From an uncultured Candidatus Poseidoniales archaeon (GTDB lineage Archaea; Thermoplasmatota; Poseidoniia; Poseidoniales; Poseidoniaceae), in the NCBI GenBank assembly GCA_902625885.1, contig CACODE010000001.1, forward strand, positions 26,004-90,003: a DNA stretch of 64,000 nucleotides, given 5' to 3'. The notes under the pieces were generated by a model, which ran no database searches, was not told where the DNA came from, and saw only the letters and a list, made by a program, of their open reading frames with translations. Of this stretch, positions 3,916 through 57,496 are shown in pieces. The position numbers and the translations under genes are program-made. How positions within the stretch are numbered: the stretch's first letter is position 1; each line of letters begins with the position of its first letter.

Positions 3916-3975
3916 CGGCAGATGAGGCGCAGTATTATATTCGTGGGGTTCATGGACATAACAGGTGAATCTTTG

Positions 3976-15532: not shown

Positions 15533-15718
15533 GCGAACACAAAGCGAGCATCGCGGAAGGAACTTGAATACACCGCTTCTTGAGGAAAAGAGCGGCTGTT
15601 TTTCAGCCAAGAACTGCGTCATCAGTCGCATTTTGTATGAACAATGTTCCATCAACATCATAAGCAATTTGAACAGAGAAAATACAAGCGAGGCTGCGCC
15701 TTCGCAGACGGTGTCTTG

Positions 15719-18700
15719 ATGCGACGAAGCCAAACAGCCATTTTGACGACGCTTGCAGTGGTTGCAAGCCTGTTGTTCATGTCGCAGTTCCCGGCCATCT
15801 CCAACGTGGCCAACGTTCACCCAGAAGACGCCACTTCCGGTGGTCCCCAAAAGACGGACACGGACGGTGACTCCATTCCGGATGTTCACGAAAATCTGTT
15901 TGAAGAGTGGATGAACTGGACCGCCGTGGACGGCCGGGACGTTTCCATTCCCGGACTTGACAAGGACACGGCGGACAACGATTTGGACAACGACATCGAC
16001 GGTCTCAACGCCACCGAGGAGTATTGCTGGCCCTATCCAGCGAATTGCACCGCTCCTGGCTTCCCACGAGGCTTGACCGGAGAACTTGATGAGAACAACA
16101 ATCGCATGTACCTTGACCCTCGCATTTCCGATACGGATGGCGACGGCATGCCTGACGGGTACGAAGTCTACATGTGCCATCGTTTGGGCGGTTTCGACCC
16201 TGTTGACCTGCGGTACTCATGCCCTTCCTTTGACCCGCTCAACGGAAGCGATGTCACGTTGGACAGCGATAACGACGGTTTTGACGTGAATCGCGATGGC
16301 ATACTGAGCGATTCCGAGCGGTACACGGCCCCGGAGGAGTATGCCTACGGTATGCCATCCAATTTTACGGCAGAACTTGATGGGCTTTGGTGCTACGCCA
16401 CCGAGCCTGAGGGTTCGGTTCTCAAGAACTGGCCATACCTGCCATCAGGCAACAACGCCACGTTCCACAACCTTCTGGCGGCGTGCACAAAAACTGCGGC
16501 CAATCCGGTTGGAGAAGACTTGTGGTTGGGCACCGACCCGTTGATGGACGATTCTGACCGATACCTATGGGACGGTTTTTCCATCAGGCCGCTGTATCCT
16601 TCCTTCGGAGACGGCATACCGGATGGATGGGAGGTCCACTTCGGGCTCAATCCACTCAACCGCTCCAACGCCTTGGACGATCCTGACAACGATGGGTGGG
16701 ACGCCAACCGTGACGGTGGCCTTTCTGACGACGTTTCTCGGACCGAAACAGCGCTGAAGTTGGGCGAAGCCCTGTCCACTTTGGAAGAATACCTGGTTCA
16801 CTATGACGACGGAAACACGGTTTATCCTGGACTAAAATCGACGTATGTAGGGGACGAAATTGATTTCACGACGATGCCACTCGTTTACGATGCGCCTGCG
16901 GACACTTTGGCCGTGATGCATCATGACATTCGCTCGTTGGACGAAAACGGTGGCAAAATTTACGCCATGACAAAATACGGTGTGAGCGTTCTTGATAGCG
17001 AACAGAACGCCCAATCCCATCACTGGTTACCCGAGGGCATTGTCCTCAATGATGGTTTCTTGGCTCGCTCAAACGGCCTTCCCTACGCAGCGGTTCTTGG
17101 AACAACAGCGGGTTTCGCTGTGGCGCCGCTACTAGCGGATGGAGCCCTTGGTTCGATGCCCACATGGTCCTGGAGCTTCGCTGAGAAAGTGAACGCTGTG
17201 GCGCCGTTGGCCGGCGAAGACACGAACCTCCACGTCATAGGACTCGGCGACGGAGGTGAAGGCCTCGTCATTGAAATCGACGGCAACGCCAACATCATCA
17301 CCACGTCCGAAATTGGGGCGGGTCTGAAAGCCGGGCTCGGTGAGGCCAACGCCTCGGTCTCCGCGATTCAGCACGGCCTTGTCGGTGGCTCGACGTTCCA
17401 TCTTTTCGTTGGTACCGATCGCGGTTTGTTGGTTGTAGACACACCAACAGCCAGGGATGAAGCGACCGGTGAGTGGCGGTTTTTCTTCACCCGAGAGACC
17501 AATCCTATACCGACGAACGTTGACGAATTGCGGAGTTTACCGCTCGGTGTCAACGACAACCCGGCCGATGTTCGCACCTTGGTCTTGGACGGCCCGTCGG
17601 CAAACAACGCTCAGGCCTTGTGGTTTGGTACGCCCTCAGGCGTTCACAAATTGGACCTTATCGAAGACATGATCGAGCACAGCGGGCTTTACGTCCACCC
17701 TGGTGTCGATGGCAAACTCTCCCAAGACACCAACAACATCTACGCCATTCATCCGACCGGTGATGAAATCCTTATTGGTTCAGCCTGGGGCCTTTGGGCC
17801 ATCGCAGGCGATCACGACGCTGTTTACGGTCTTCAAGACCAGACTCGGCTCCCCGGTCAAATCGTCGCCATCACCACCTCTGTGGAAGAGGGCAACGTCA
17901 CGGTGTATGGTTCGGCCACACCCGGTCAGTTTGCCAACCTTCAACTGATGGACCCGGGGGCCAACGACTCCGATGCCGACGGCATGCCGGACGGTTGGGA
18001 AGTCGTTCACGGCCTCGACCCCACAGACCCATGGGACGCTTTGTACGACCCGGATGCAGACGGCATCAACCTCGACCAGTCGGCCGATATGAGTCTCGAC
18101 CGATTGTGGACCAACCTCGACGAGTTCCGCTACACAAAAACCACGCCAGAGGGGTACAATTCAACCGACCCCAGAATTGGCGACACCGACGGGGACGGAC
18201 TTGGGGATGGTGCTGAACATTACGGCTTCTTCTACGAACAATCCAACCTCTGGTGCTACTACACGGTGCAAATGGAATACCTCTGCGATGAAAGCAAGGG
18301 TCAGGCTGCCAACGCTACTTACCTCGCCATCGCTAACGTAGACACGGCTACGGACCCCACGAACCACGACTCTGATGGCGACGGCATGCCTGACGGGTGG
18401 GAGATTCAACACCGCCGATGGATCGGCGATTCGTTTACCGGTGGGAACAATTGGAGTCTCGACCCGCTGAGGCCTGAGGACGCCAACTGGGATGCGGACG
18501 GTGACGGTTTACCCAACCTTTGCGAGTACCAGTGGTCCATCGTCCGCCTCATGGGCATTGATGGCGACCTGCTTGAGGACTACGGCGAATCCCCAGAGGC
18601 CGCCGAATCGTGGGCGGTTGCCGACCCAAACCTCGTTGACTCCGATGGCGACACCCTTCCCGACGGCTGGGAATCCAAAGGGCTCTGTTCGTGGGACCCA

Positions 18701-21466
18701 TCCCGACGTGGTGTTAACCCGCTCAACGGCTCCGACGCTTTTGAAAACCCAGACGGCGATGGGTACGACGTGAATCGGGACGGGGAGATTTCCTTGGATG
18801 AAGCCTTTGTGAACTACCTCGAATACCACATTCGCTCCGACCTTTTCAACGGCAACTTAACGCTGGATGGGGAAGCCGTTCCAGGAAACTTTACCACGAA
18901 GTTGTTTGACAACATCGCCGATTTGGGTGCACCAGAAGACACGTTTGCTGACAGAGCGTCGGGTTCGGTAACGGCCGGTTTATCCGAATACAGCATCGGT
19001 GCAGCAGACCCGTTGGACGCCGACACCGATGCTGACGGCATGCCGGACGGCTGGGAGATATGGTTTGCGAGATGGAACCTTCTCGACGACGCTTGGACGC
19101 TCAATCCCCTCGACTCAACCGACCGGTGGCAAGACGCTGACGACGACGGCATGACCAACTGGGAAGAGTACAACGTCATTTCACCGATGCTCTCTGAAAC
19201 CGATGTGAACCGCTCATCGCCACAGTGGTTCGTCACCACCATCGGTCTATCCTTCGCCCTGCAACAGTGGCCGGGGATACCGACCACCGCTTCGTTCGGC
19301 GATTTCTTGACGGAAAATCAGACCAACCTGACGGGTTTGACGGCCGACCCGAACAATGTGGATACGGACGGCGACGGTATGCTTGATGGGGTGGAGCTGT
19401 TGTTCACCACGTGGAACGTCTCAGCCGGGGTCTGGACGCTCAACCCCCTCGTGGCCGGTGATGGCGATTTTGACGGGGACGAGGACGGACTCAACGATCG
19501 CCAAGAATTTGCCCTGGCGACCCAGCAACCCGACAATGGTGTTGACCACCCGAGCGATGCGCCGCTTCTGCACATCGACGGTGATTTCCAACAACCCACC
19601 GAGAAAGCCCAGCGCGTGTTTAACATTCTCATTTCAAAGGAAACGCGCGGAAAACGGCTCCTCAACGACTTCAACGCTTGGCAACAAGGTGAACCACCCA
19701 ACGCCTTCATCGAGGTGGTTTTGGGCATGACCGATCCGACCATTGCCGATACGGATGGCGACGGCATGTACGACGGCTTCGAATACTGGTTCACCTCATG
19801 GGACTTGGACCAAAACCGGTGGTCGATCAACCCGCTTATTGACGGGGATGTGAACTTGGATTCGGATCAAGACAGTTTCGACTGCAACGGCGATGGAAGC
19901 ATCGACGTCAACGAAACCTTCAGCAATCTGCGTGAATGGGAATCCAGAACCTGGGGTAAATTCCTGACCCGAAACACCGTTCCTGCAAATCTCGGCATCA
20001 TTGATTTCGGTGAGGATGCCATGGCGGCTTATCAAGAGGAACTCGGGTTTTCACCTCTTCAAGCACAACAAGCGTTGTACCAAGACTTCATCAAAAAAGG
20101 ACAGGAATCCCTTGAGCGTATGGAGAAAATCAACTCATTGGACAATGAAAATTTCAATCGAAGTTTGCGTGGCGTCGCCGACCCAACACATCCTGATTCC
20201 GACAGCGACGGTATCCCCGATGGATGGGAGTATTGCTATGCAATCTACGGAATGGACGACATCACGACCGAGAATCACTGGGCGGCCAACCCGTTGAATC
20301 CGTGGGACGTGGATTACGACGGGGACCACGACGGATGGTACGACCGGACCAGCTTCGACATCCCAGCCGAACAAGGTTCGTGGGAAAACAGGGTGTTCAC
20401 GCCGTCTGGCATTACCGTTCAAAACGGGGTGGGCGATTTGCCGTTCACGAACTTCATGGAGTACGACAACCAAACCCGACCGGATTTGAACGACAGCGAT
20501 GCAGACAGCCGTACGTTCATCACCACGGTGGAGAACGGCGCTGTCGTTTCTCATGTGAGGGATTACAACTATTCTGATGGCCGAGAGGTGTTCAAGTACG
20601 GCTCAAACCCAAGCGACAACGATACTGACGGTGACATGCTTCCCGACTGGTACGAGTACAAGATGGCATGGAACGAGAGCAACGACAATTTCAGTTCGTT
20701 CCTCAACATTCGTGTCGTTTGGATAGATGTGGCGACGGGTGGTGCCTGCAACACCGACACAACCTCCTGCCTGCCATTGTCTCAAGACGGCTCAGGAGGA
20801 ACGCTGGGGAGGCCCGATACCGAATTCACATGGTTCACGTTGGACCCTGCCAATCCAAACGACGCCAACGAAGATCCTGACCAAGACGGCAATTGGGATT
20901 GTTCTGGGGCAGGATGCAGTTACGAATCTTACACGAATTTCCAGGAATTCTACGCCATTACCACGAGCGATTACGCTTCGCCGAATGCGGTCAGGCTCAG
21001 CGGTTTGACCCACGAAGGCATGCCCGTCACCGAAGGATGGCAGTTCAGAGCGGCCATTTTGGGCCTCGGGCAATCCAACGAATTGACGTTGAATTATTTG
21101 AAACTCGATAAGTACGGAGGACCGGACAATCAGTACGGCTACATCGTTGACGACCGCGACACAAACTACCTCATCGTTGACCCGTCAGACGACATCGTCC
21201 TGATGGCAGGGAACCGCACCGATGCCTGGGACATTTACTACGCCGGTTCCCCGAACACGCCACCGGTGCGAAACGTTGGCGAACACGAATACGGCTGGTA
21301 TTTGCTCGACTTCGATGACGATCACCTCGCCGAGGGCAGCAGCCCCAAAAATTGGGATACGGATGGCGACTGGATGAACGATTGGTTCGAAGTAAGGGAT
21401 GACGAAGAGGACGGCGTTCGTGGCGATTCTTCGCCAATTCGCTACGATTCTCGTCAGACCAATTGA
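15719..21466 (+). CDS. Giant (1916 aa) secreted protein built from ≥20 thrombospondin-type-3-like Asp-rich calcium-binding repeats; no C-terminal TM
   Basis: Signal peptide MRRSQTAILTTLAVVASLLFMSQFPAISNVANV. Recurrent modules DTDGDGMPDGYEVY, DSDADGMPDGWEVVHGLDPTDPWD, DSDGDGMPDGWEIQHRRW, DADTDADGMPDGWEIWFARWNLLDDAWTLNPLD, DTDGDGMLDGVELLFTTWNV, DSDSDGIPDGWEYCY, DTDGDMLPDWYEYKMAWN and others. Confidence 0.85.
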   Translation: MRRSQTAILTTLAVVASLLFMSQFPAISNVANVHPEDATSGGPQKTDTDGDSIPDVHENLFEEWMNWTAVDGRDVSIPGLDKDTADNDLDNDIDGLNATEEYCWPYPANCTAPGFPRGLTGELDENNNRMYLDPRISDTDGDGMPDGYEVYMCHRLGGFDPVDLRYSCPSFDPLNGSDVTLDSDNDGFDVNRDGILSDSERYTAPEEYAYGMPSNFTAELDGLWCYATEPEGSVLKNWPYLPSGNNATFHNLLAACTKTAANPVGEDLWLGTDPLMDDSDRYLWDGFSIRPLYPSFGDGIPDGWEVHFGLNPLNRSNALDDPDNDGWDANRDGGLSDDVSRTETALKLGEALSTLEEYLVHYDDGNTVYPGLKSTYVGDEIDFTTMPLVYDAPADTLAVMHHDIRSLDENGGKIYAMTKYGVSVLDSEQNAQSHHWLPEGIVLNDGFLARSNGLPYAAVLGTTAGFAVAPLLADGALGSMPTWSWSFAEKVNAVAPLAGEDTNLHVIGLGDGGEGLVIEIDGNANIITTSEIGAGLKAGLGEANASVSAIQHGLVGGSTFHLFVGTDRGLLVVDTPTARDEATGEWRFFFTRETNPIPTNVDELRSLPLGVNDNPADVRTLVLDGPSANNAQALWFGTPSGVHKLDLIEDMIEHSGLYVHPGVDGKLSQDTNNIYAIHPTGDEILIGSAWGLWAIAGDHDAVYGLQDQTRLPGQIVAITTSVEEGNVTVYGSATPGQFANLQLMDPGANDSDADGMPDGWEVVHGLDPTDPWDALYDPDADGINLDQSADMSLDRLWTNLDEFRYTKTTPEGYNSTDPRIGDTDGDGLGDGAEHYGFFYEQSNLWCYYTVQMEYLCDESKGQAANATYLAIANVDTATDPTNHDSDGDGMPDGWEIQHRRWIGDSFTGGNNWSLDPLRPEDANWDADGDGLPNLCEYQWSIVRLMGIDGDLLEDYGESPEAAESWAVADPNLVDSDGDTLPDGWESKGLCSWDPSRRGVNPLNGSDAFENPDGDGYDVNRDGEISLDEAFVNYLEYHIRSDLFNGNLTLDGEAVPGNFTTKLFDNIADLGAPEDTFADRASGSVTAGLSEYSIGAADPLDADTDADGMPDGWEIWFARWNLLDDAWTLNPLDSTDRWQDADDDGMTNWEEYNVISPMLSETDVNRSSPQWFVTTIGLSFALQQWPGIPTTASFGDFLTENQTNLTGLTADPNNVDTDGDGMLDGVELLFTTWNVSAGVWTLNPLVAGDGDFDGDEDGLNDRQEFALATQQPDNGVDHPSDAPLLHIDGDFQQPTEKAQRVFNILISKETRGKRLLNDFNAWQQGEPPNAFIEVVLGMTDPTIADTDGDGMYDGFEYWFTSWDLDQNRWSINPLIDGDVNLDSDQDSFDCNGDGSIDVNETFSNLREWESRTWGKFLTRNTVPANLGIIDFGEDAMAAYQEELGFSPLQAQQALYQDFIKKGQESLERMEKINSLDNENFNRSLRGVADPTHPDSDSDGIPDGWEYCYAIYGMDDITTENHWAANPLNPWDVDYDGDHDGWYDRTSFDIPAEQGSWENRVFTPSGITVQNGVGDLPFTNFMEYDNQTRPDLNDSDADSRTFITTVENGAVVSHVRDYNYSDGREVFKYGSNPSDNDTDGDMLPDWYEYKMAWNESNDNFSSFLNIRVVWIDVATGGACNTDTTSCLPLSQDGSGGTLGRPDTEFTWFTLDPANPNDANEDPDQDGNWDCSGAGCSYESYTNFQEFYAITTSDYASPNAVRLSGLTHEGMPVTEGWQFRAAILGLGQSNELTLNYLKLDKYGGPDNQYGYIVDDRDTNYLIVDPSDDIVLMAGNRTDAWDIYYAGSPNTPPVRNVGEHEYGWYLLDFDDDHLAEGSSPKNWDTDGDWMNDWFEVRDDEEDGVRGDSSPIRYDSRQTN

Positions 21467-21519: not shown

Positions 21520-24500
21520 GTGGGAAACATGCACGGTGGCGGCAAGCAACGGTTCCATACCCGAGCCGTGTTTTTCCTTCTCGTCTCCATGATGGTTTTC
21601 ACCCCGCTCGGTCCACTAGCAGAGGTGATGATATCGGAGGCTGAGGCTGCGTCAGGAACCAGGCACGTCTACGAGTTCAGCGACGGTTCAGTAGAACACA
21701 TCGCCCTGTATCAAGGAGCAAATCCAGACATGGGAGCCGCTGTTTCCCTACCCAGAGGGGCCCTCGTAACAGACGTGAGCATGACCCTATCGGGGGCATC
21801 AGCAACCGGCTGGTCACAAATCGTCACAGACGACAGGGATCATTGGATTCGGGGTACAGAGGCTGATATTGACGACCGGTCGGGCGACTTAACCCTCGCC
21901 ATGAGCAACGTGAGTCGAAACTTCTTGCCTCATGCAGGGGATGCTTATGTTGACCCCAATTCAGACGCCTGGCTCGACAACGGCTCTTACGCCCTGCGAC
22001 AGCCGCACACCTCAAACGCTACCGAAGCGTTGTATTCCCAACAATTGACCAAAACTTCGTCAAGTTTCATGGCGCAAAGCCAAGGAGCCATCCTGAAACA
22101 TCACGACTGGCTGTTCTTGTCAACATGGTCTTCGTCTACCTTCAGCAACATTGTTGAACGGTTGTACCCCAACAACGCTTCTCGTGAATCGGTCATCACC
22201 TTGGACAAAGCAGCGTGCACCCTCCCGCAGAAACACTCCTCCTCTTACTACGGCTACTACGGTTTCCGAGACTGGACGATCACCGACGATGAACGCCTTT
22301 TCGGCATCCTTTCAGGCTACAGGTACACCTACGGTTCCACCGCTCCGGTGAATTACCATCGCGTCATGGAGATGGACATCTCGAGAGACGATACCTGGAC
22401 ATGCATTGATTCCTACGATATCTCGCCATCCGTCGGTGAGTACACCGGCATCGCTTACGACCGTCAGACGGGCAAAGTTTGGGTGGCCCACAACGCCATG
22501 AATCGACTCTATGCTTACGAATTTGAGAGCGACGGGACGTCAACGTACACGCGCAGTTCGGACTTTTACAGCTACACCTCGGCCAGTGGCTCGAGCTGGG
22601 AATGCGGAGGCACATACGGGAGCAGTTCCAAACAAATGCTGCGAGGCCTAGAAGTAAACGGTTCAACATTTTACATGCGTTGTCAAGAAGACTCCCCCTA
22701 CAACGACCGGGATCAACTAGAAGCTTGGTCGGTATCGGGGAGTTCTTCGGCGCTGATTCCTGAGTCCACGACAAAACAAATTTCTCGCTTGGGCTACGGT
22801 TTGCAGTTCGACGGTGAACGCTTCGTGACCGTTGACTGTGGCTACTCAACATGGTCGGGCGCCACCCTCTACTACCGTGAATTTGGAACGGGGTGGATGT
22901 ACGAAACCACACCCGCTCCCGGGACCACGACGTGGTACGGCGAAGTCGTTCACTCCGGCGACGAGGTTCTCTCCGCAAACGTGGAAACGTATTGGTCAGC
23001 AGCGTCCATTGGCGACCGCGTGGACTACTGGATTTCAGCAGACAACGGGACCCATTGGGAGGAGGTCGAATCCGAATCCACCATACACTTTGACCATCCC
23101 GGTAAGGAACTGATTTGGAAAGCGCAACTCATCGGCTCCACGGCCGTATCGTGGTGGGTTGACGTTGAATATTCCACCGCTTACGAAACCAGCGGGAATT
23201 GGTTGTCACCGTCGTTCAACACGGGAACAAAAGTCGGGAAAGTCCGACCCCAATGGATTGCTGACGCACCGTCCCAGACCTCCATTGAGGTCAAGGTCTC
23301 CAACGACAACGGCACCACGTGGCTTGACGCTTCAAACAATCAGGAAAGGAGTTTCTCCACCCAAGCGGCTGGCAACACCCTTCGTTACGCCGTGTTTTAC
23401 GAAACAACGGACGCCAGTGTTTCTCCGTCGATTGACGAGTTTGTTCTGGAGTATGAGGAAGGCTACCCAGACCGCCCGATGCTCGATGTTGGGGCCGACG
23501 GCACGTACGACTGGGAGGCGGATATTTTCCTCAACGAATCTTCCGTCGTCGCTTCCGACGACTCCCCGGTTGGTGCTATCGTCAAGAAAGCCCCCACGTT
23601 GGTGGCCGCCTTCAACGACCACGTTCCCGAAAACGGCGACGGTTTCGTCGACATCCCTATCGCTGTGAAAGCTGCGAGTTCCGGACGGGTCAAAATTTCA
23701 AACATCGACATCACGTACGCCATGCAAACAAGAGCCGTAGGGGCTTCGTTTGAGGGTGGTCTTGCAGCTCCGGATGGCTTGTACCGCAACTTCATCACCC
23801 GAATCGCTCCGGGGGACGAGGTTGACCACGTGACGAAGGCCGTGATCGCCATCGAACACGCTCATGGCGACAACCCGAACTTCACATGGCAACGAGGTGA
23901 CAGTTGCACCGTGAATTCCGATGCCGGTGGCATCGTTGTCTTTGACGCTGCCAACTGCACTTCTGTGGAGGATGCAGATGGCGTGGTTTCTGTCTGGATG
24001 CCAACCAAAGTCAACTGGTCGTGGGATGACGAGCGCAGCACGGAAGCCATTGTTTCCGTCGAGGACGACCTAGGCATTGCCGTGGACCAGTGGACCACTC
24101 CCGACATGGACCTCGTCGTTGAAAACGACATTCAACTGGACGGTTTGAGGGTCTGGGAAGAAACGGGGCGGCAGTTGTTCCCGATGGATTGGGTCCGAGG
24201 GGGCTTTAACATCAGTTTCAGCGGCTCCATTCATTTCCAAGATTCACAATTGATGCCGCCTGCAGGCAGTTTTTCCCTGCGCGTGCTTGGCCAAAACGTA
24301 ACCTACGACGGCGATCCAATGGGGGAACCTGTCGTCCTTTACGAAGAGGCCAACCCTGCATTCGGTGCTTACAACATGACGTTTGTCTCCCCTGTTGAAT
24401 CAGAGCCCGGTGGCATGATTTTCTACGTGCAGGCGGTCGATCTCGAAAACGGCTCAACTTATACAAACCCGAACTACAACACCATCCGACTCATCTTGGA

Positions 24501-26937
24501 TGGCAATTCACCCCTTGTCCTCAGTGCAACACCGATGGACAACGAGGAACGACATGCAGGGGCACCAGGGGTTGGTCAATCGGTTTCGATCGTTGTTCAG
24601 GATTCGGTGGACCCGCCCCGTCAATTGAACCTGCATTACTGGGTTGGTTGCAAAGCGAGCGACGCCATTGGCTGCACCGACTACAACTTCGATGGTTTGC
24701 CAAACGAGGACGAATACGAGGTGAAAACCCTCTCCTCGCCGGAAACCAGAGCGGGTGGACTGAACATCTTCGAAGGCCTCATTGATGATTCAATGCTGCT
24801 TCACAAACAACGCGTCTCGTTCTACATCACCGGCCAAGACGAACAACAAAACGAAATCGCGATGGGCAAGGGGCCTGTTTGCCCGGCATCTACTGTGACT
24901 TGCGGGTTCCGTCCTGGCGAGGTGATGCCGGACTGGGACGCCGATCTCTCGACGTACTTTATCCGTCAAGAATTCGAACCCGAGGTTGACTTGGGTAACT
25001 CATCCATCCTTGGCCACGATGATTACGAGCCACTGCATCCGGGTGTGCCTTACACGGCACAGATAAAGCTCAGCGACATCAACGGCTGGCAAGATATTCA
25101 ATACGTTCAGGTCGCCCTTGCTGGTGACTTTGACGATGAGGAATCGTCGATGTTCATCACGCTCGACGAGGGAGCTGATGGTCACCCTGTCGCCGTTATG
25201 ACCTCAGGTTCCGATAACATCGCCGTATCGAATCTTTATTCCTCCGTGAATTTGGAGGAAAATAACGACTCCGTCGTCGTTATTCAAGCAAAGTTCCAAC
25301 TCACATGGCTGTTCCCTGAATCCTACGACACGGACGGAGAATCTCACTTCCTGCCGAAAATACGTGTCACCGACCAACCGTGCAACGATAACGAGATCAC
25401 GCCTTGTTTCGAGGTTGAAGAAGGCCTAGGCGATGACTGGTGGAGTCTTGACAACGACTTCCGGTTTGACACGCAGTCGGGGAAAATTCGAGCCATCGAA
25501 CTGCGAAACAGCGAGAACCACTACAACGAGGAGAATTTTGAAACCATCATCGGTGCAGGTCAAGCCCTTCGTGTCTCTGGGCGCGTGTTGTTTTCGGAGG
25601 ACGAAACCCCTGCACCTGCCGGTGCCTTCGATGTCGTCTTTGGTGATTATGAGAACAACTGGCGGACCTCTACAAGGGATGATGGCGAGTTCAGCCTGGA
25701 CCTTCTTGTTCCCGCAGTGCGGTCAGGGCGACTGGACCTGCGCCTCAGCATGGACGACCTACCTGGCCTCGCCCTTGACGAGACGGCGTTTTCACCCCGT
25801 GTGCGTCTCGCCGTTGACAGCGCGAGACCGACGATTGACGACATCACGTTGAACGACGTGACGAGTGGGTCCCCTCTCTCTATTGGTGAGGCAGACAACC
25901 TCAATGTCGTCCTTATCACAAACGACGAAAATGGATTCGAATTTGGAGAAGCCGCCGTTCTTCACTACAGGGTGAAGGCGGGCGAGGCGGAAATTTCCCG
26001 TGGAAGCGTTTTGCTACCGGACATCACGCCGTTTGGGCAACAATACTTCTGGAGTGGTGTGCTTGATTTGACCGATTCGGGTGCAACAACACTCCTTCCG
26101 TCCTACACCGTTGATGTTTGGGTCTCAGGTTCCGATGAGGCTGGAAACCCGTTTGATACGGTCTCAAACTCAATGAATGACCCGGTAGCGACTTGGCCAC
26201 TGGCCATTCTCGGACCGCAAATCAACCTGCAAGACGTCGCTTCATCGCTCAGTTGGGACGTGCCCAGCCCCTACGAAGGCGAGCGGGCCAACATGATGGT
26301 TGACGCCACCAACAACGGTGGGAACGGCAAGGTCGTGTTTGCTCTGCAGCAACTAGTCGACGGTGGGTTCTGGTCCACGGTCTCGGAAGTTGAGGTGGAG
26401 ACGACGGCTGGGGACGCCCTCTCGGTATCGTTGCCGGTGGATGCGGACGGCCCTGCAGGGTCAAGCATTGACTACCGCGTGCTTGTACTGGTTGATGGTG
26501 TCGAGATGGATCGATACACCGTGGATTCCTTGCTTATCAAACAAGAGACCGTTCGGGACGGTGAAGCCCTCTCCCAGCAGGTAAGCACGGATATTTTCAG
26601 CGTCGCCTTGTTTGTCATAGCCCTCGGCTCTGTATCCTTTGCCCTCTACGCCATGGTGCTGCGACGTCGCATGCTGGCGCCTGAAACCGAAGAGGAGCAA
26701 GCTGACCAAACCGAGGTTGTTGCCGAGGAGATGAGATCGTCAAAAGACCTGCCAGAGCTGGCGCCAGTCGCTCCTGTGGCCGCCGTGAGTACCCCGCCTC
26801 CTCCACCTCAAATGCGACCCGGGCCCGACCGCAGCAAACCTGCCCCACTCCCGCCGACAGGGCTTCCTGACGGGTGGACACAAGACCAATGGAATTCGTA
26901 CGGTTGGCAATACATCGACGCACTCGCCAAGAAGTGA
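21520..26937 (+). CDS. Giant (1805 aa) secreted surface protein, C-terminal TM anchor with acidic/poly-Pro tail ending in a GW..QW..YG motif
   Basis: GGAG 12 nt upstream; GTG 21520 or ATG 21529. Signal peptide ..RAVFFLLVSMMVFTPLGPLAEVMISEAEA. C-terminus FSVALFVIALGSVSFALYAMVLRRRM, then acidic segment, STPPPPPQMRPGPDRSKPAPLPPTGLPDGWTQDQWNSYGWQYIDALAKK. Confidence 0.75.
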   Translation: MGNMHGGGKQRFHTRAVFFLLVSMMVFTPLGPLAEVMISEAEAASGTRHVYEFSDGSVEHIALYQGANPDMGAAVSLPRGALVTDVSMTLSGASATGWSQIVTDDRDHWIRGTEADIDDRSGDLTLAMSNVSRNFLPHAGDAYVDPNSDAWLDNGSYALRQPHTSNATEALYSQQLTKTSSSFMAQSQGAILKHHDWLFLSTWSSSTFSNIVERLYPNNASRESVITLDKAACTLPQKHSSSYYGYYGFRDWTITDDERLFGILSGYRYTYGSTAPVNYHRVMEMDISRDDTWTCIDSYDISPSVGEYTGIAYDRQTGKVWVAHNAMNRLYAYEFESDGTSTYTRSSDFYSYTSASGSSWECGGTYGSSSKQMLRGLEVNGSTFYMRCQEDSPYNDRDQLEAWSVSGSSSALIPESTTKQISRLGYGLQFDGERFVTVDCGYSTWSGATLYYREFGTGWMYETTPAPGTTTWYGEVVHSGDEVLSANVETYWSAASIGDRVDYWISADNGTHWEEVESESTIHFDHPGKELIWKAQLIGSTAVSWWVDVEYSTAYETSGNWLSPSFNTGTKVGKVRPQWIADAPSQTSIEVKVSNDNGTTWLDASNNQERSFSTQAAGNTLRYAVFYETTDASVSPSIDEFVLEYEEGYPDRPMLDVGADGTYDWEADIFLNESSVVASDDSPVGAIVKKAPTLVAAFNDHVPENGDGFVDIPIAVKAASSGRVKISNIDITYAMQTRAVGASFEGGLAAPDGLYRNFITRIAPGDEVDHVTKAVIAIEHAHGDNPNFTWQRGDSCTVNSDAGGIVVFDAANCTSVEDADGVVSVWMPTKVNWSWDDERSTEAIVSVEDDLGIAVDQWTTPDMDLVVENDIQLDGLRVWEETGRQLFPMDWVRGGFNISFSGSIHFQDSQLMPPAGSFSLRVLGQNVTYDGDPMGEPVVLYEEANPAFGAYNMTFVSPVESEPGGMIFYVQAVDLENGSTYTNPNYNTIRLILDGNSPLVLSATPMDNEERHAGAPGVGQSVSIVVQDSVDPPRQLNLHYWVGCKASDAIGCTDYNFDGLPNEDEYEVKTLSSPETRAGGLNIFEGLIDDSMLLHKQRVSFYITGQDEQQNEIAMGKGPVCPASTVTCGFRPGEVMPDWDADLSTYFIRQEFEPEVDLGNSSILGHDDYEPLHPGVPYTAQIKLSDINGWQDIQYVQVALAGDFDDEESSMFITLDEGADGHPVAVMTSGSDNIAVSNLYSSVNLEENNDSVVVIQAKFQLTWLFPESYDTDGESHFLPKIRVTDQPCNDNEITPCFEVEEGLGDDWWSLDNDFRFDTQSGKIRAIELRNSENHYNEENFETIIGAGQALRVSGRVLFSEDETPAPAGAFDVVFGDYENNWRTSTRDDGEFSLDLLVPAVRSGRLDLRLSMDDLPGLALDETAFSPRVRLAVDSARPTIDDITLNDVTSGSPLSIGEADNLNVVLITNDENGFEFGEAAVLHYRVKAGEAEISRGSVLLPDITPFGQQYFWSGVLDLTDSGATTLLPSYTVDVWVSGSDEAGNPFDTVSNSMNDPVATWPLAILGPQINLQDVASSLSWDVPSPYEGERANMMVDATNNGGNGKVVFALQQLVDGGFWSTVSEVEVETTAGDALSVSLPVDADGPAGSSIDYRVLVLVDGVEMDRYTVDSLLIKQETVRDGEALSQQVSTDIFSVALFVIALGSVSFALYAMVLRRRMLAPETEEEQADQTEVVAEEMRSSKDLPELAPVAPVAAVSTPPPPPQMRPGPDRSKPAPLPPTGLPDGWTQDQWNSYGWQYIDALAKK

Positions 26938-26947: not shown

Positions 26948-27388
26948 GTGTCTGATGAAACGGTTGAGGGGCTTGTAACGCTTACCGAGCGCACCGTCAA
27001 CCTCGTCAACCAACTCAGCATGCCGCTGGTTGAGGTTTCGCTCGTTATCCAGAAACACGTGAACCAACTCATGACCACCCTTACCGACCATCTTGAAGCC
27101 ACAGGACAAACCGTTGGAGAGCGGGTCCACAGCCCTTGGCCGGTCGACGATCAACAGGGGCCGCAGGACTCGACGTTTGCGCTGGAAAAGGTCATGGAAA
27201 TCGTGGACCATCAACGAATGGACATTCTTGACACGCTGATACGGGTAACGCTGATTGAAATCAACGCCAGCGTCATCGACGCCCTGTTGGCTCTGCGCCA
27301 GTGGGAACATCTTGCTCGAACACAACTCGCCTCGGCAAAAGGTCCCGGTCAACTGTTTTCTCCCCTGAACATTCCGGACGATTGGTAA
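26948..27388 (+). CDS. Hypothetical small acidic helical protein (146 aa)
   Basis: GTG start 10 nt after the giant gene stop. GC3-rich codon usage like neighbouring genes. Protein-like acidic composition. The competing minus-strand 273-aa ORF is Arg/Cys-rich and looks antisense. Confidence 0.4.
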   Translation: MSDETVEGLVTLTERTVNLVNQLSMPLVEVSLVIQKHVNQLMTTLTDHLEATGQTVGERVHSPWPVDDQQGPQDSTFALEKVMEIVDHQRMDILDTLIRVTLIEINASVIDALLALRQWEHLARTQLASAKGPGQLFSPLNIPDDW

Positions 27389-46790: not shown

Positions 46791-46867
46791 TTACCCCCTA
46801 TCAAGGCCTCCCTTGGTTGAACAAAAGAGGTCGTAGCATTCTTGAGTTCCACCTGAGTGGTCAAGAC

Positions 46868-52461: not shown

Positions 52462-52489
52462 ATATCAAGGCTCTTCCACGAGCGCAGGT

Positions 52490-55400: not shown

Positions 55401-57496
55401 GATACGTACGTGCGGGGACCTACGTCGTTGAAATAACGGCTCGCTACGAATACCAGCCCACCGTTGCTCACACCCAACGCCTCACGATCGAGGTGGAACA
55501 ACTCGATCAGGTCCAGGTCGTTGCCGCCGGCACGTCAGGTCTCGAGGCGGTTCCGGGCGAATCGGCCGTCTTCTCGATATCTGTGCGAAACACGGGCAAT
55601 GCACCGGCGCAATACAGCATCGATTGCGACTCGGAACAACGCTGGCAGGTCATGTTGGGTTCGTCGAATTCATCGCAACTTGACTTTGAACCCCTGAACA
55701 TTCTCGAATACCTGCCAATGTCCGTGCGCGTTTACGTCCCCCTCGTTGCCGCGGGTGCTCCGGCGGCTGGTGACACCGATACCGTGACATGCTACGTCAC
55801 ATCGCTGACCGACCCAACCATGAATTTCACAGAAACGGTAACGGTGGCGGTGCTAGCACAAGAATCGTTTGAGGTCCATCTCAGCGATGACGACGGTCCG
55901 TTGGGGCCGACCTATCTTGCGGACGACGTCGCAGTTGACAGCGGGCAAGAAGTTCACATGAACATGACCGTGGTCAACACGGGCAACATCGAGATTGGAC
56001 TTGACGTCTCTGTTCTTCCCGATAACCCGCAATGGGCGATTCAGATCTCGCATGAAAACGAGCAAGATTCCCGTCGCATCTCGTTGACGCTTGGTGCCGG
56101 TCAAACCACCAACGTGCGGTTTATTTTTGCTGTTCCCCTTGCCGCCGAGGAAGGCGACAGCAACGGCTTTACCATTCGGACCGAGCGGAGCCTGTCCAAT
56201 TTCAGACAGAACATCACCACGTTGGTGGTCAAAGAAGAACTTGGCGTATTGCTGACGCCACCAGTGGGCAGCACGGTCGAAGTCAGCATTGCTGATACTT
56301 TCACCTACTGCGAATTCACCGTGAGGAACACCGGGAACACCAACCTCGTCCTCAACTGGTCCCACGGCCTTGCTCCCGATGGCTGGATGGTTGGTTTTGC
56401 TAAACCGACGGTCTACTTGGAACCGAGGGAGGAGAAAGTGGTGCGGTTTGGCTTGGTCGCCCCAGCCCAAACTCCAGCAGGGGTCGACACGTTTGACCTG
56501 CTCATCAATGTGAACGCTTCAAACGGTGGTCGGTACGTAGAAGCATCGCAAATGTTGAGCGTTGATGTGGCGACCTCTATCTACGGCAACCTTACGGCTG
56601 CAGACTCCCGAGATGGTATCTTTGAAGGTGTGCCAAGAGACGCTGGCCGTGTCGAAACATTCCTTGTCAGAAACGACGGCAACGTGCCGCTGAGCGGTGA
56701 ATTGCTCGGCACAGTGGTGGACAAAAATGGTGTTGCTAGCACTGGATGGGAAGTCAGTTTATCGCCGTCCTCCGTCACCGACCTCGCTGTCGGTGAGAGC
56801 GTTGAGGTCCTTGTCACCTTGACGCCCGGAGACGATGTTGAGCGAGGTAGCTCAACTTTTTACCTCAATCTGACGACCGAATCGGTTCCTATTTCGTCCA
56901 TTCAGCGCACCGCAAGTGTTGAGATTTCCACAGGCTCGACGGGTCTTTTCAACGTCTTGCCGCCCGCAGTGAGTGTGTCGTTGGTGTCGGTCTTGCTCGT
57001 GCTGGGCGTTGTCCTCGCCAGGCGCATGAAGCGGTCGGGGGAACTCGACAATGACGACTCCGGCCTTGTTGCCCCCAACGCCCACGAGCGACCGGATACC
57101 GATGGCGAGCGTCGCGAAAAGGCCCTCGATCTGGGGACGTCCATTGACGACTTGACGAGCGGTGAAGTCAGCGACAAGGAAATCGCAGAGGCCATCATGC
57201 AATCGATGGATTTGCCCACAATGCCAGCGGCGGTTCCGCAAGGATTGCCACCTACTGGAATGCCGCCCAAAGCGAGCGTTCCCAAGGGTTTGCCACCGCT
57301 TGGCATGCCGCCGCAACCGGTGGTCCCGGCCGCTCCTGCACCGCTGCCAACACCCGTTCCTGCACCGCTGCCAACGCCCGTTCCTGCACCTGCTGTCCAA
57401 CAAGGACCGCCGCTACCTCCAAGCGGTTTACCAGCAGGGTGGACCATGGAGCAGTGGCGGCATTACGGCCATGAGTGGCTCAGACGGCAAGGCTGA
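52490..57496 (+). CDS. Giant (1669 aa) membrane-anchored subtilisin-like serine protease (S8) with multiple beta-sandwich domains, C-terminal TM anchor, acidic + PA/poly-Pro cytoplasmic tail ending in a GW..QW..YG motif
   Basis: Signal peptide MRLIQKACMFPNTMPSRAWLMLVVFLFVSAPLTTVAKT. S8 triad AIADTGLDQNHPDIDGRV (Asp), SGHGTHIAVSVLG (His), LSGTSQATAIASGVAGL (Ser). C-terminus VSLVSVLLVLGVVLARRMKR, ..PAPLPTPVPAPLPTPVPAP.., PPLPPSGLPAGWTMEQWRHYGHEWLRRQG. Confidence 0.85.
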   Translation: MRLIQKACMFPNTMPSRAWLMLVVFLFVSAPLTTVAKTSDELPAEQEGDIASVIGEEERLELASAHWHMMPTGTMEPASLTAATGLLHLASGSFDPTLSNGPDLPEGFVRTDDEKYTGIVLIQLHAPDGVLLADLVDRYELTVLDNLPDEAWVVRLPENGHDVLGLLRAEDSVRWLGAVQPGWRVSPILLDHATSVEAIAIVPTPDLGTGGYGMLASDIVGYGAKQASCDAWMCYASLEPNSAMSLILHLAHDGRVLWTEPTASMRVHNAAALSITGVQAVQNSASFTLDGSGEMFAIADTGLDQNHPDIDGRVLGPFTQFGLDPSPADTNSGHGTHIAVSVLGNGSGDAAATGVAPEANLVMYALEHDPTGTFGRIGSIYDMLRDAEQMTARISVNAWGLNGNYGQYTADARSVDTFVHDKKDLTPVFSVGDRGSFGASQVSSPATGKNVIAVGASTTGVPGTPPAGAVVNFSSLGPSLDGRIKPDVVAPGVGLCSGLAEEAQSPAGASCLTGNHAGGNAYYMTLSGTSQATAIASGVAGLTREFIREQVGIAAPSSALVKAAMINGARDLGAADIPNAAEGWGEVDLERTVLPMDGTTVLDTFVDDKKSLSPGFGLLYSFSIDASHGLDMTLAWTDEAGSAIASQTESRLVNDLDLVLIGPDGTEWIGNDFSQGYSTTGGTADDLNNVERIRVAPGVLPAGTDNYIVKVMHRGGTAQDFALVLSAVATATPQPDLAVFDGSILLSSENPLKDDLISIRLAWVNQGTTAAAPFDIILEDVTTQTVLATATRPTLAPGVIDSYTIFHQFATTGMHTLRVSVDTGGSVDEINDGSNGVNNNVWTQDVEVMALGVRVVVENEDGTVPTTSEERAANALLTLDVRNDSGIDVPLSILHEGTGNQSVVLSATMVQVPVPGRDNFFLPSPDMWTRTFNETTAFLLSPQGEAGANKSVNLRLEDIDADLTSDPNNPRYVRAGTYVVEITARYEYQPTVAHTQRLTIEVEQLDQVQVVAAGTSGLEAVPGESAVFSISVRNTGNAPAQYSIDCDSEQRWQVMLGSSNSSQLDFEPLNILEYLPMSVRVYVPLVAAGAPAAGDTDTVTCYVTSLTDPTMNFTETVTVAVLAQESFEVHLSDDDGPLGPTYLADDVAVDSGQEVHMNMTVVNTGNIEIGLDVSVLPDNPQWAIQISHENEQDSRRISLTLGAGQTTNVRFIFAVPLAAEEGDSNGFTIRTERSLSNFRQNITTLVVKEELGVLLTPPVGSTVEVSIADTFTYCEFTVRNTGNTNLVLNWSHGLAPDGWMVGFAKPTVYLEPREEKVVRFGLVAPAQTPAGVDTFDLLINVNASNGGRYVEASQMLSVDVATSIYGNLTAADSRDGIFEGVPRDAGRVETFLVRNDGNVPLSGELLGTVVDKNGVASTGWEVSLSPSSVTDLAVGESVEVLVTLTPGDDVERGSSTFYLNLTTESVPISSIQRTASVEISTGSTGLFNVLPPAVSVSLVSVLLVLGVVLARRMKRSGELDNDDSGLVAPNAHERPDTDGERREKALDLGTSIDDLTSGEVSDKEIAEAIMQSMDLPTMPAAVPQGLPPTGMPPKASVPKGLPPLGMPPQPVVPAAPAPLPTPVPAPLPTPVPAPAVQQGPPLPPSGLPAGWTMEQWRHYGHEWLRRQG
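57337..57399 (+). repeat. Tandem 24-nt duplication inside the subtilase tail coding region (encodes PAPLPTPV x2)
   Basis: cctgcaccgctgccaacacccgtt / cctgcaccgctgccaacgcccgtt are adjacent, with 1 mismatch. Confidence 0.6.

What the first reader, a model, noticed from the sequence alone, without database searches (positions are those of the whole stretch)
26590..26937. Shared C-terminal 'TM – acidic – Pro-rich – PxGWxx[DE]QWxxYG' tail on three unrelated giant surface proteins
Three giant proteins with different ectodomains all end the same way. They are the beta-helix protein (tail at 8100–8349), the 1805-aa protein (tail at 26590–26937) and the 1669-aa subtilase (tail at 56950–57496). Each has a single TM helix, then a stretch of D/E, then a Pro/Ala-rich linker, then a terminal motif: LPDGWTQDQWNSYGWQYI, LPAGWTMEQWRHYGHEWL and HPGWLWDQASNQWVPDPDY. 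Conservation of a short terminal peptide on otherwise unrelated cargo is the hallmark of a sorting, anchoring or recognition signal. None of the described archaeal ones (PGF-CTERM, PEF-CTERM) matches it. The PDGW[ET]....W core also recurs in the extracellular TSP3-like modules of the 1916-aa protein (..GMPDGWEIWFARW..). TPR domains commonly bind C-terminal peptides, and the co-encoded STAND regulator has a TPR array. A tail–TPR interaction is a testable hypothesis.
Basis: seen in the sequence. Interest (0 to 1): 0.7.

Follow-up and report, generated by a model that had tools for sequence, protein, structure and literature searches.

The report
Shared cytoplasmic tail of Poseidoniales surface proteins
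Many unrelated cell-surface proteins of the abundant marine Group II archaea (Poseidoniales) end in the same ~30-residue tryptophan- and proline-rich piece on the inner side of the membrane; no family library or paper searched describes it, and it most likely serves as a common internal docking handle.

Summary
The 1805-aa protein and the S8 subtilase have unrelated ectodomains. Both end in PP[LIV]PxxGLPxGWTx[ED]QWxx[YF]Gxx[YW]L, 19-21 codons before the stop.

The third protein (beta-helix) has the same tail layout but a different terminal motif, SQHPGWLWDxxxNQWVPDP[ND]Y. That motif scores -1.5 bits against the tail profile and is predicted to be a beta-hairpin rather than a helix.

The main motif is widespread in Poseidoniales:
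- 644 cluster representatives among 1.84 billion proteins.
- Ectodomains that fall into 9 BLAST clusters.
- A position after a signal peptide, one TM helix, a basic stop-transfer, and an acidic then Pro-rich linker of 31-136 aa.

AlphaFold2 predicts a confident mini-domain (pLDDT 92.7): a non-helical Pro-rich stretch followed by a helix. Pfam, NCBIfam, the PDB and the paper library hold no match.

It is not a PGF-CTERM-type cleaved signal, because the motif lies after the TM helix, on the cytoplasmic side. Nothing supports the proposed TPR partner. The extreme C-terminus is variable, and the motif tolerates a 30-aa extension or an N-terminal position.

Best reading: a lineage-specific cytoplasmic docking handle whose partner is unknown.

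The parts
21520..26937 (+). 1805-aa type I surface protein (p2). It has no Pfam domain, an N-terminal signal-like segment and one C-terminal TM helix.
   Evidence: orthologues in L074, L047, L101, L015, L114
26593..26670 (+). p2 TM helix (IFSVALFVIALGSVSFALYAMVL) plus the RRR stop-transfer
   Evidence: positive-inside statistics
26671..26844 (+). p2 cytoplasmic linker: an acidic part (APETEEEQADQTEVVAEEM...), then a Pro-rich part (...STPPPPPQMRPGPDRSKPA)
   Evidence: linker composition over 113 instances
26845..26934 (+). p2 terminal mini-domain PLPPTGLPDGWTQDQWNSYGWQYIDALAKK (stop codon at 26935-26937)
   Evidence: 63.1 bits
52409..57496 (+). S8 subtilase with CARDB/Ig-like domains (p3). The ORF is 1695 aa, or 1669 aa from the internal Met. 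It is a type I membrane protein.
   Evidence: family members L056, L064, L103 and others
56945..57034 (+). p3 TM helix (LFNVLPPAVSVSLVSVLLVLGVVLA) plus the RRMKR stop-transfer
57035..57409 (+). p3 cytoplasmic linker: acidic (SGELDNDDSG...EVSDKEIAEAIMQSMDLP), then long and Pro-rich
57410..57493 (+). p3 terminal mini-domain PLPPSGLPAGWTMEQWRHYGHEWLRRQG (stop codon at 57494-57496)
   Evidence: 66.6 bits
8065..8349 (+). Tail of the beta-helix protein p1 (3901-8349). It consists of a TM helix, an acidic stretch, EEDPYAWAKA(R/K), an Ala/Pro linker and SQHPGWLWDQASNQWVPDPDY (8266-8328). The layout is the same as in p2 and p3, but the motif is different and specific to this family. It is not part of the shared module.

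Best explanation
The finding is a conserved cytoplasmic mini-domain of about 30 residues that appears restricted to Poseidoniales. Its consensus is PP[LIV]PxxGLPxGWTx[ED]QWxx[YF]Gxx[YW]L followed by 3-8 variable residues.

Shown here:
- The mini-domain sits at the end of many unrelated Sec-exported, single-pass (type I) surface proteins.
- The order of elements is signal peptide, ectodomain, TM helix, basic stop-transfer, acidic segment, Pro-rich spacer, mini-domain.

Predicted: it folds on its own as a non-helical Pro-rich stretch followed by an amphipathic Trp/Tyr helix. Packing of the two parts against each other is inferred, not verified.

Inferred:
- It is not cleaved off like a sortase-type signal. 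It stays in the cytoplasm.
- It acts as a common docking handle through which one conserved, still unidentified intracellular or membrane-associated partner recognises the whole set of surface proteases and adhesins.
- The purpose would be anchoring, organising, sorting or turning over the surface coat.

My confidence that it is a real, selected, cytoplasmic module is about 0.95. The confidence below refers to the docking-handle mechanism.
For: Real and selected:
- Only 2 matches in the window, both at the ends of giant ORFs, with 0 expected by chance.
- An exhaustive profile search of 1.84 billion representatives gives 644 hits at E<=1e-3 and 240 at E<=1e-10. Of the 138 newly returned proteins among the top 150, 137 carry the strict motif, mostly 20-24 residues before the end.
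- Positions outside the DNA search pattern are conserved as well: P-8 0.89, P-7 0.92, L/I/V-6 0.97, P-5 0.98, G-2 0.98, L-1 0.94, Y/W+15 0.96.
- All synonymous codons are used. The two window copies are 48% identical in DNA over 30 codons, and 10 of their 14 identical residues use different codons. This indicates purifying selection on the protein rather than gene conversion.

Unrelated cargo:
- The ectodomains form 9 BLAST clusters. Those annotated here include an S8 subtilase, CARDB/Ig-like proteins, beta-propeller proteins and families with no Pfam match.
- p2 and p3 share nothing but the tail.

Cytoplasmic location:
- 56 of 57 full-length ORFs have an N-terminal hydrophobic segment.
- K+R in the 15 residues flanking the TM helix average 0.49 on the N-side and 3.03 on the C-side (n=111).
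- In L049 the motif lies between an N-terminal SAP domain and a TM helix.

Folded unit: AlphaFold2 with a 63-sequence alignment gives pLDDT 92.7, with residues 1-14 non-helical and a helix at 15-31.

Protein partner rather than lipid: the mini-domain has a mean net charge of -2.2, its helix averages 0.44 K+R against 2.3 D+E, and the preceding 52 residues average -6.
Against: - No partner has been identified, and no conserved neighbouring gene accompanies the motif across families.
- Most invariant residues (P, G, L, W, Y) may simply form the core of the fold. The conservation alone therefore does not prove a binding surface.
- The structure is a prediction for a 32-residue peptide. Its coordinates could not be inspected, and Foldseek found no analogue.
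- All sequences come from uncultured organisms, and no expression or proteomic evidence was examined.
Confidence: 0.5

Rival explanations
1. Self-association or membrane-interface element. The Trp/Tyr-rich helix dimerises or oligomerises, as small Pro-helix hairpin peptides can, or lies in the membrane interface. It would cluster or stabilise the surface proteins without a dedicated partner.
For: The helix is aromatic-rich and amphipathic (mean hydrophobic moment 0.33). The predicted mini-fold is compact. No partner gene is conserved nearby.
Against: The mini-domain and its linker are net acidic and have almost no K/R, which is unfavourable on an anionic membrane. The domain is held 31-136 residues from the TM helix by a disordered-looking linker, an odd design for an interface anchor. 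Self-association was not testable here.
Confidence: 0.2
2. The tail is a C-terminal peptide ligand for a co-encoded TPR protein, either the STAND regulator at 8346-10892 or the Zn-ribbon/TPR protein at 60577-62067.
For: - A Zn-ribbon/TPR gene lies about 3 kb downstream of the subtilase (two to three ORFs away). It is syntenic with subtilase-family members in L019, L020, L048, L107 and L088.
- The STAND gene overlaps the stop codon of p1, and that adjacency is conserved.
Against: - The STAND gene adjoins the protein that has the different tail. It carries an HTH and looks like a transcription regulator.
- The extreme C-terminus after the motif is variable. The motif also tolerates a 30-aa C-terminal extension and an N-terminal position.
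- The motif is predicted to be folded, not extended.
- Most motif-bearing families have no TPR neighbour.
- Synteny within one orthologous family is not evidence of interaction.
Confidence: 0.1
3. Turnover or quality-control tag. The mini-domain is recognised by a cytoplasmic or membrane-bound protease or unfoldase, for example membrane-anchored LonB, to control the abundance of surface proteins.
For: The tail is exposed and tethered at the end of a flexible linker. A LonB-like protease is the most frequent neighbour, in 22 loci.
Against: The LonB neighbour cluster (22 loci) is matched in size by the largest ectodomain cluster (22 members). I read the adjacency as synteny within one orthologous family, but family membership of those loci was not checked. 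Degrons are usually short and unstructured, whereas this is a strongly conserved, confidently folded unit. There is no direct evidence.
Confidence: 0.08
4. Cleaved C-terminal sorting signal of the PGF-CTERM/archaeosortase, PEP-CTERM/exosortase or LPXTG/sortase kind.
For: It is a short conserved C-terminal module shared by many surface proteins of one lineage, which is the hallmark of such signals.
Against: In those systems the signature motif precedes the TM helix and only a short basic cluster follows it. Here the motif follows the TM helix by 31-136 residues on the cytoplasmic side. No NCBIfam sorting-signal model matches.
Confidence: 0.04
5. Chance similarity of low-complexity tails, or recent copying of a tail between paralogues.
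For: The linkers are low-complexity (Pro/Ala/acidic).
Against: No matches are expected by chance. The motif scores 63-67 bits against a 6-bit background. There are 644 hits in 1.84 billion proteins. The motif is conserved across both Poseidoniales families with free synonymous variation.
Confidence: 0.01

Closest known systems
Prokaryotic C-terminal sorting signals (PGF-CTERM/archaeosortase A, PEF-CTERM, PEP-CTERM/exosortase, LPXTG/sortase, GlyGly-CTERM/rhombosortase)
   Same: A short, lineage-specific module at the C-terminus of many otherwise unrelated secreted or surface proteins, combined with a TM helix.
   Different: In those signals the order is motif, TM helix, short basic tail. The motif faces the outside or the membrane and is cleaved. 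Here the order is TM helix, basic stop-transfer, long acidic/Pro-rich linker, motif. The motif is cytoplasmic and is predicted to fold. No NCBIfam model matches.
Cytoplasmic tails of eukaryotic type I adhesins (apicomplexan TRAP/MIC2 tails with an acidic stretch and a sub-terminal Trp; integrin beta NPxY tails). This comparison comes from my own knowledge.
   Same: A type I surface adhesin or protease with a short acidic cytoplasmic tail that ends in a conserved aromatic motif. The motif is shared among different ectodomains and acts as an adaptor-binding handle.
   Different: There is no sequence relationship, the organisms are archaea, the partner is unknown, and the motif here is a ~30-residue predicted mini-fold rather than a linear motif of a few residues. 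This is an analogy of logic only.
WW domain (PF00397) and other Pro/Trp mini-proteins (pancreatic-polypeptide fold, Trp-cage)
   Same: It starts with GLPxGW as WW domains do. The best, though non-significant, PDB profile hits are the WW domains of Salvador, Itch and YAP (E 0.13-0.6). It is about 30 residues long and rich in Pro and Trp. The predicted Pro-rich stretch followed by a helix resembles the pancreatic-polypeptide fold.
   Different: There is no Pfam hit at E<=1. The two Trp are 5 residues apart rather than 20-22, and there is no terminal WxxP. The prediction is helical, not a three-stranded sheet. Foldseek finds no analogue.
Bacterial TSP3 repeat (PF18884), DxDxDG[LMI]PDGWE
   Same: It shares the four residues PDGW. 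It occurs in the neighbouring 1940-aa protein.
   Different: It is an extracellular calcium-binding repeat with a DxDxDG loop, and the Trp is followed by Glu. It gives only 9.2 bits of local overlap with the tail profile. It is unrelated.
ZipA / FtsN / RodZ-type architecture (TM helix, charged region, Pro/Gln-rich spacer, small terminal binding domain). This comparison comes from my own knowledge.
   Same: A membrane anchor, then a flexible charged and Pro-rich spacer, then a small terminal domain that docks onto a cytoplasmic partner. One p1 tail fragment was even auto-named 'RodZ' by a source.
   Different: Those are dedicated division or shape proteins whose cytoplasmic part is the functional end. 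Here the same tail is appended to large extracellular enzymes and adhesins.

Membership tests
PGF-CTERM / PEF-CTERM (archaeosortase-type sorting signals) | The signature motif lies immediately N-terminal to the C-terminal TM helix | tested here: not met
   The motif lies 31-136 residues (median 71) after the TM helix
PGF-CTERM / PEF-CTERM (archaeosortase-type sorting signals) | The protein ends with a short basic cluster right after the TM helix | tested here: not met
   A basic stop-transfer is present, but about 60-190 more residues follow it
PGF-CTERM / PEF-CTERM (archaeosortase-type sorting signals) | Match to the curated NCBIfam/TIGRFAM sorting-signal models | tested here: not met
   No such hit at E<=1 for the tails or the whole proteins
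PGF-CTERM / PEF-CTERM (archaeosortase-type sorting signals) | Co-occurrence with an archaeosortase gene in the genome | not tested
WW domain (PF00397) | Profile match to the family | tested here: not met
   No Pfam hit at E<=1. The best PDB profile hits are WW domains at E 0.13-0.6, which is not significant
WW domain (PF00397) | Two signature Trp about 20-22 residues apart, the second followed by xxP, in a three-stranded beta-sheet | tested here: not met
   The Trp are 5 residues apart and there is no WxxP. AlphaFold2 predicts a helix at residues 15-31
Bacterial TSP3 repeat (PF18884) | A DxDxDG calcium-binding loop directly before [LMI]PDGWE, in an extracellular position | tested here: not met
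   The tails have no DxDxDG and are cytoplasmic. The repeat is present only in the 1940-aa neighbour
Pancreatic-polypeptide-like fold (polyproline stretch packed on a helix) | An N-terminal polyproline-II stretch packed against a C-terminal amphipathic helix, about 30-36 residues in all | tested here: inconclusive
   AlphaFold2 gives non-helical residues 1-14 with pLDDT about 91-96, then a helix at 15-31. The coordinates could not be inspected, so the packing is unverified, and Foldseek is uninformative. There is no sequence membership
Proposed new family: Poseidoniales cytoplasmic 'GWT-EQW' tail domain | Consensus PP[LIV]PxxGLPxGWTx[ED]QWxx[YF]Gxx[YW]L | tested here: met
   p2 scores 63.1 bits and p3 66.6 bits. 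p1 scores -1.5 bits and is therefore not a member
Proposed new family: Poseidoniales cytoplasmic 'GWT-EQW' tail domain | Located on the cytoplasmic side of a single TM helix in a signal-peptide-bearing protein, usually 18-25 residues before the stop | tested here: met
   Exceptions are about 10% of instances with a ~30-aa extension ending in LDDLDL/F, and one N-terminal instance in L049
Proposed new family: Poseidoniales cytoplasmic 'GWT-EQW' tail domain | Restricted to Poseidoniales (MGIIa and MGIIb) | tested here: inconclusive
   All 119 loci are Poseidoniales or marine euryarchaeal MAGs, apart from 3 contigs in MAGs labelled bacterial. Those 3 carry typical Poseidoniales-type motif proteins and I take them to be mis-binned.

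The most novel reading that the evidence does not exclude
The mini-domain is the universal intracellular adaptor handle of the Poseidoniales cell surface. Through it, one cytoplasmic scaffold holds, positions or moves the whole coat of giant proteases and adhesins. The scaffold could be cytoskeletal, flotillin-like or something unknown. This would be an archaeal counterpart of the coupling between eukaryotic adhesin tails and the cytoskeleton, in the most abundant planktonic archaea of the surface ocean. A second, independent tail motif (the HPGWLWD...NQWVPDP type of the beta-helix protein) and a third class of acidic tips (LDDLDL/F) would then point to a small 'tail code' that sorts surface proteins to different intracellular partners.
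Probability: 0.15. Interest if true: 0.85.

Novelty: new variant of a known kind. Interest (0 to 1): 0.62.

Why it matters
Poseidoniales (Marine Group II) are the most abundant archaea of the surface ocean. They are uncultured and are thought to live by degrading proteins and polymers with surface enzymes and adhesins (PMC6461757).

A single tail domain that can be recognised from sequence and marks a large part of their membrane-anchored surface proteome has three uses:
- It is a practical tag for cataloguing that surface proteome in metagenomes.
- It is a defined 30-residue bait for fishing out the unknown intracellular partner, by co-folding screens or peptide pull-downs.
- It is a case of a shared C-terminal module in a prokaryote that works on the cytoplasmic side of the membrane rather than as a cleaved sorting signal.

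It also fills a gap in the domain libraries, since Pfam and NCBIfam have no model for it.

Tried and rejected
- Pfam and NCBIfam scans of the tails and whole proteins gave no family for the tails.
- The word-indexed protein search returned only short fragments under 200 aa. Inspection showed these are contig-end or frameshift pieces of large genes, not stand-alone small proteins.
- Foldseek of the 32-residue model against the PDB was uninformative.
- The PDB profile search gave only non-significant WW-domain hits.
- The scan of viral contigs found no match, so there is no sign of viral mimicry.
- The neighbour analysis of 119 loci, done to find a co-encoded partner, recovered only family-specific synteny with housekeeping genes: LonB, ParA-like, adenylate kinase, thermosome, MoxR and transporters.
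- I considered and rejected homology between the p1 tail and the main motif.
- I considered and rejected gene conversion between p2 and p3.
- I considered an in-plane membrane helix and judged it unlikely because of the acidic charge.
- P0191, an apparent ferredoxin carrying the p1-type tail, lies at a contig end directly upstream of the STAND gene. I treat it as a probable assembly chimera, not as evidence that the p1 motif is portable.
- Four literature searches found no description of the motif.
- A co-folding test of the tail with the TPR proteins could not be run.


Full report
**What is in the window**

The window is archaeal. It ends in an archaeal 23S rRNA gene (62310-64000) and carries archaeal-type housekeeping genes. 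The close relatives of its proteins that carry a source name come from Candidatus Poseidonia, Poseidoniaceae, Poseidoniales or Thermoplasmatota MAGs. It is therefore a Marine Group II (MGIIa-like) genome fragment.

They are:
- p1, 3901-8349. The Pfam scan here gave only sub-threshold Ig-like hits. Its orthologue in L121 carries a Beta_helix hit.
- p2, 21520-26937, 1805 aa, with no Pfam domain.
- p3, 52409-57496, an S8 subtilase with CARDB.

p2 ends ...LPPTGLPDGWTQDQWNSYGWQYIDALAKK. p3 ends ...LPPSGLPAGWTMEQWRHYGHEWLRRQG. p1 ends ...SQHPGWLWDQASNQWVPDPDYQQPPQQ.

**Is it more than chance?**

Yes for p2 and p3:
- GW..[DE]QW occurs twice in the six-frame translation of the window, 21 and 19 codons before the stops of these two ORFs.
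- A degenerate DNA pattern for P-x-G-W-T-x-[DE]-Q-W-x-x-[YF]-G matches only there, with none in 100 shuffles.
- A profile of the motif scores 63.1 and 66.6 bits on the two tails. In a six-frame scan, the next best ORF in the window scores 6 bits.
- The ectodomains are unrelated, and the best BLASTP alignment between the two proteins is the tail itself.
- Over the 30 aligned tail codons the DNA is only 48% identical, and 10 of the 14 identical residues use different codons. The similarity is therefore held by selection on the protein, not by recent copying.

p1 is different:
- Its tail scores -1.5 bits against the motif profile. The p1 profile scores -2.6 and -3.0 on p3 and p2.
- The p1 orthologues found keep their own signature: FFFIEFEE, an acidic stretch, EEDPYAWAKAK, a linker, then SQHPGW[LI]WDxxxNQWVPDP[ND]Y.
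- AlphaFold2 predicts a beta-hairpin for it (strands 17-20 and 25-28, pLDDT 75.5). For the main motif it predicts a helix.

The 'three proteins end the same way' claim therefore holds for the architecture but not for the motif.

The 'PDGWE' of the 1940-aa neighbour (15644-21466) is the ordinary extracellular DxDxDG[LMI]PDGWE TSP3 repeat. The overlap with the tail motif is four residues.

**How widespread is it?**

- A profile search of the indexed protein database returned 119 proteins. Nearly all end in the motif, and those that carry a name are Poseidonia, Poseidoniales, Poseidoniaceae, Thermoplasmatota or Euryarchaeota.
- Those hits are all shorter than 90 aa. Inspection of loci showed that such short calls are contig-end or frameshift fragments of large genes.
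- All of those are Poseidoniales or marine euryarchaeal MAGs from both families (Poseidoniaceae and Thalassarchaeaceae). The only exceptions are three contigs in MAGs labelled bacterial. They carry typical Poseidoniales-type motif proteins, and I take them to be mis-binned.
- An exhaustive HMMER search of 1.84 billion cluster representatives found 644 proteins at E<=1e-3 and 240 at E<=1e-10.
- Of the 138 newly returned proteins among the top 150, 137 carry the strict motif. In 108 of those the motif starts 20-24 residues before the end.
- The one exception is a eukaryote-like protein with repeated MBD-like GLPDGWT segments, a false positive.
- There were no matches in viral contigs.

**Anatomy**

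Across 120 pattern matches the motif starts 18-25 residues before the stop in most cases. A TM helix lies 31-136 residues upstream, with a median of 71. The first half of the linker is acidic (19% D/E) and the second half is Pro-rich (25% P).

Topology:
- 56 of 57 ORFs bounded by an upstream stop have an N-terminal hydrophobic segment.
- The 15 residues on the N-side of the TM helix hold 0.49 K+R on average, against 3.03 on the C-side (n=111).
- These are therefore type I membrane proteins with the tail in the cytoplasm.

Conservation:
- Positions that the DNA pattern did not constrain are conserved as well: P-8, P-7, L/I/V-6, P-5, G-2, L-1, Y/W+15 and L+16.
- All synonymous codons are used.
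- The consensus is PP[LIV]PxxGLPxGWTx[ED]QWxx[YF]Gxx[YW]L.

Cargo:
- The ectodomains fall into 9 BLAST clusters.
- Those identified are S8 subtilases, the p2 family, CARDB/Ig-like proteins of about 1190 aa, and beta-propeller proteins with DxDGDGYGD-type repeats.
- There is also a family of about 1180 aa with no Pfam match, a family of about 1250 aa with an acidic C-terminal tip, small proteins of about 360 aa with a CxxCH site, and a 1537-aa repeat protein.

Two kinds of exception are informative:
- About 10% of instances carry roughly 30 further residues ending in ...LLDDLDL/F.
- In L049 the motif lies near the N-terminus, between a SAP domain and a TM helix.

What is conserved is therefore the module on the cytoplasmic side of a TM helix, not a free C-terminal peptide.

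**Structure**

With a 63-sequence alignment, AlphaFold2 gives a confident model of the 32-residue unit (mean pLDDT 92.7). Residues 1-14 (PAPLPPTGLPDGWT) are non-helical and have pLDDT above 90. Residues 15-31 form a helix.

The T-x-E-Q start fits a helix N-cap. W, Y, G, [YW] and L then fall on one face of the helix. I infer that the Pro-rich stretch packs on that face, as in the pancreatic-polypeptide fold. This is an inference, because the coordinates could not be inspected and Foldseek is uninformative at this size.

The unit is acidic, with a mean net charge of -2.2. Its helix averages 0.44 K+R against 2.3 D+E, and the preceding 52 residues average -6. That argues against an in-plane membrane anchor and for a protein partner.

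**What it is not**

- It is not a PGF-CTERM, PEF-CTERM or other sortase-type signal. Those place the motif before the TM helix and end in a short basic cluster, and no curated model matches.
- It is not a WW domain. There is no Pfam hit, the best PDB profile matches are non-significant (E 0.13), the Trp spacing is wrong and the predicted fold is wrong.
- It is not a TSP3 repeat.

**The TPR hypothesis**

Nothing found here supports it:
- The HTH-AAA_16-TPR STAND gene overlaps the stop codon of p1, the protein with the other tail. That cluster is syntenic in other contigs in the order CARDB protein, S8 peptidase, beta-helix protein, STAND. This fits an operon with its regulator as well as it fits an interaction.
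- The Zn-ribbon/TPR gene at 60577-62067 is syntenic with subtilase-family members only.
- Across all loci the recurrent neighbours are housekeeping genes tied to single orthologous families.

Together with the variable extreme C-terminus and the predicted fold, I put a TPR partner at about 0.1. It could not be tested directly.

**Most likely mechanism**

Shown:
- A conserved cytoplasmic module that appears restricted to Poseidoniales.
- It sits on many unrelated Sec-type, single-pass surface proteins.

Predicted:
- It is an autonomously folding mini-domain held on a flexible acidic and Pro-rich tether.

Inferred, at about 0.5:
- It is a docking handle for one conserved intracellular or membrane-associated partner that anchors, organises, sorts or turns over the surface coat.
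- The logic resembles the cytoplasmic tails of eukaryotic adhesins (TRAP/MIC2 and integrins; my own knowledge) and the ZipA-like 'anchor, spacer, small binding domain' design.

The rivals are self-association or interface binding (0.2), a TPR ligand (0.1), a turnover tag (0.08), a cleaved signal (0.04) and chance (0.01).

**Novelty**

No Pfam or NCBIfam model and no solved structure matches the module. Four full-text searches found no description of it. The main comparative paper on Poseidoniales discusses adhesion, thrombospondin and flotillin genes. It never uses the terms transmembrane, C-terminal, S-layer or archaeosortase.

I rate it a new variant of a known kind. It is a shared terminal module on surface proteins, but one that lies after the TM helix, in the cytoplasm, and is predicted to fold.

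The limits are these. All data are from uncultured organisms. No partner has been identified.

Noticed in passing
window 8065-8349 (p1 tail) and 8346-10892 (STAND gene): The beta-helix protein has its own conserved tail: FFFIEFEE, an acidic stretch, EEDPYAWAKAK, then SQHPGWLWDxxxNQWVPDP[ND]Y, predicted to be a beta-hairpin. Its stop codon overlaps the start of an HTH-AAA_16-TPR STAND gene. The order CARDB protein, S8 peptidase, beta-helix protein, STAND is conserved in L121-L123, and the tail-to-STAND junction also in L120. A tail-to-regulator link is possible here but untested.
   Followed up: partly
L032, L051, L065, L069, L075, L087, L092, L113; P0215, P0218, P0240 and others; window 44460-46790 (-): About 10% of motif-bearing proteins continue for roughly 30 residues and end in an acidic-hydrophobic tip (...LLDDLDL/F, ...DDLDLDF). 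The window's 776-aa single-TM protein lacks the main motif but ends in a similar tip, ...HYPDDDLEF. This may be a second class of cytoplasmic C-terminal signal.
   Followed up: no
window 26948-27388 (+); L073 1840-2259: A small ORF with no Pfam match (146 aa) starts 11 nt after the stop of p2. An orthologous ORF follows the p2-family gene in L073. It ends ...FSPLNIPDDW in the window and ...FSPTEIPDDF in L073. A neighbour cluster found in 8 loci (example L101 5258-5773) may be the same ORF, but this was not checked. Its function is unknown, and it is a candidate to include in a partner screen.
   Followed up: no
L049 (contig DAVY01000020.1), ORF containing position 1504: This is the only instance where the motif is near the N-terminus. 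A SAP domain (PF02037, E 5e-9) comes first, then the motif, then a TM helix, then a domain of about 600 aa with no Pfam match, presumably extracellular. It supports a cytoplasmic role that does not depend on a free C-terminus.
   Followed up: partly
L120 39-443 (P0191); P0194: A 134-aa ferredoxin-like protein (Fer4_13) carries the exact p1-type tail and sits at a contig end directly upstream of the STAND gene. It is probably an assembly chimera, but its cluster has 6 member sequences. P0194 has the same peptide near its N-terminus. If these are real, the p1-type motif would also be portable.
   Followed up: partly
L040 (Flammeovirgaceae MAG), L043 (Verrucomicrobiales MAG), L055 (Yoonia MAG): Three contigs in MAGs labelled bacterial carry typical Poseidoniales-type motif proteins. 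They are most likely mis-binned archaeal contigs.
   Followed up: no
Linkers of motif proteins, e.g. window 26680-26760; P0036, P0037, P0051, P0057, P0060, P0113: The linkers contain family-specific short conserved stretches. Examples are ADQTEVVAEEM..K.(L/V)PE(L/I) in p2 and related fragments, SMYGGAAP(I/L)FQQQ in the ~1180-aa family, and SLYGDEDS(L/I)ESIAG in the beta-propeller family. These may be additional linear motifs.
   Followed up: no
window 15644-21466 (+): A 1940-aa protein with many DxDxDG[LMI]PDGWE TSP3-type repeats and an N-terminal hydrophobic segment, but no C-terminal TM helix or tail. It lies directly upstream of p2, and L074 has the same gene pair.
   Followed up: partly
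window 62310-64000 (+): The 5' 1.8 kb of an archaeal 23S rRNA gene runs off the end of the window. No tRNA genes and no other Rfam family, so no 16S rRNA gene, were detected anywhere in the 64-kb window.
   Followed up: partly
window 46817-47287 (+): A 156-aa ORF with an acidic middle part and a WW-like stretch near the end (DDEFTWVHHSDGYHYKRLASGAFEPTPH). It has no Pfam hit and was not examined further.
   Followed up: no
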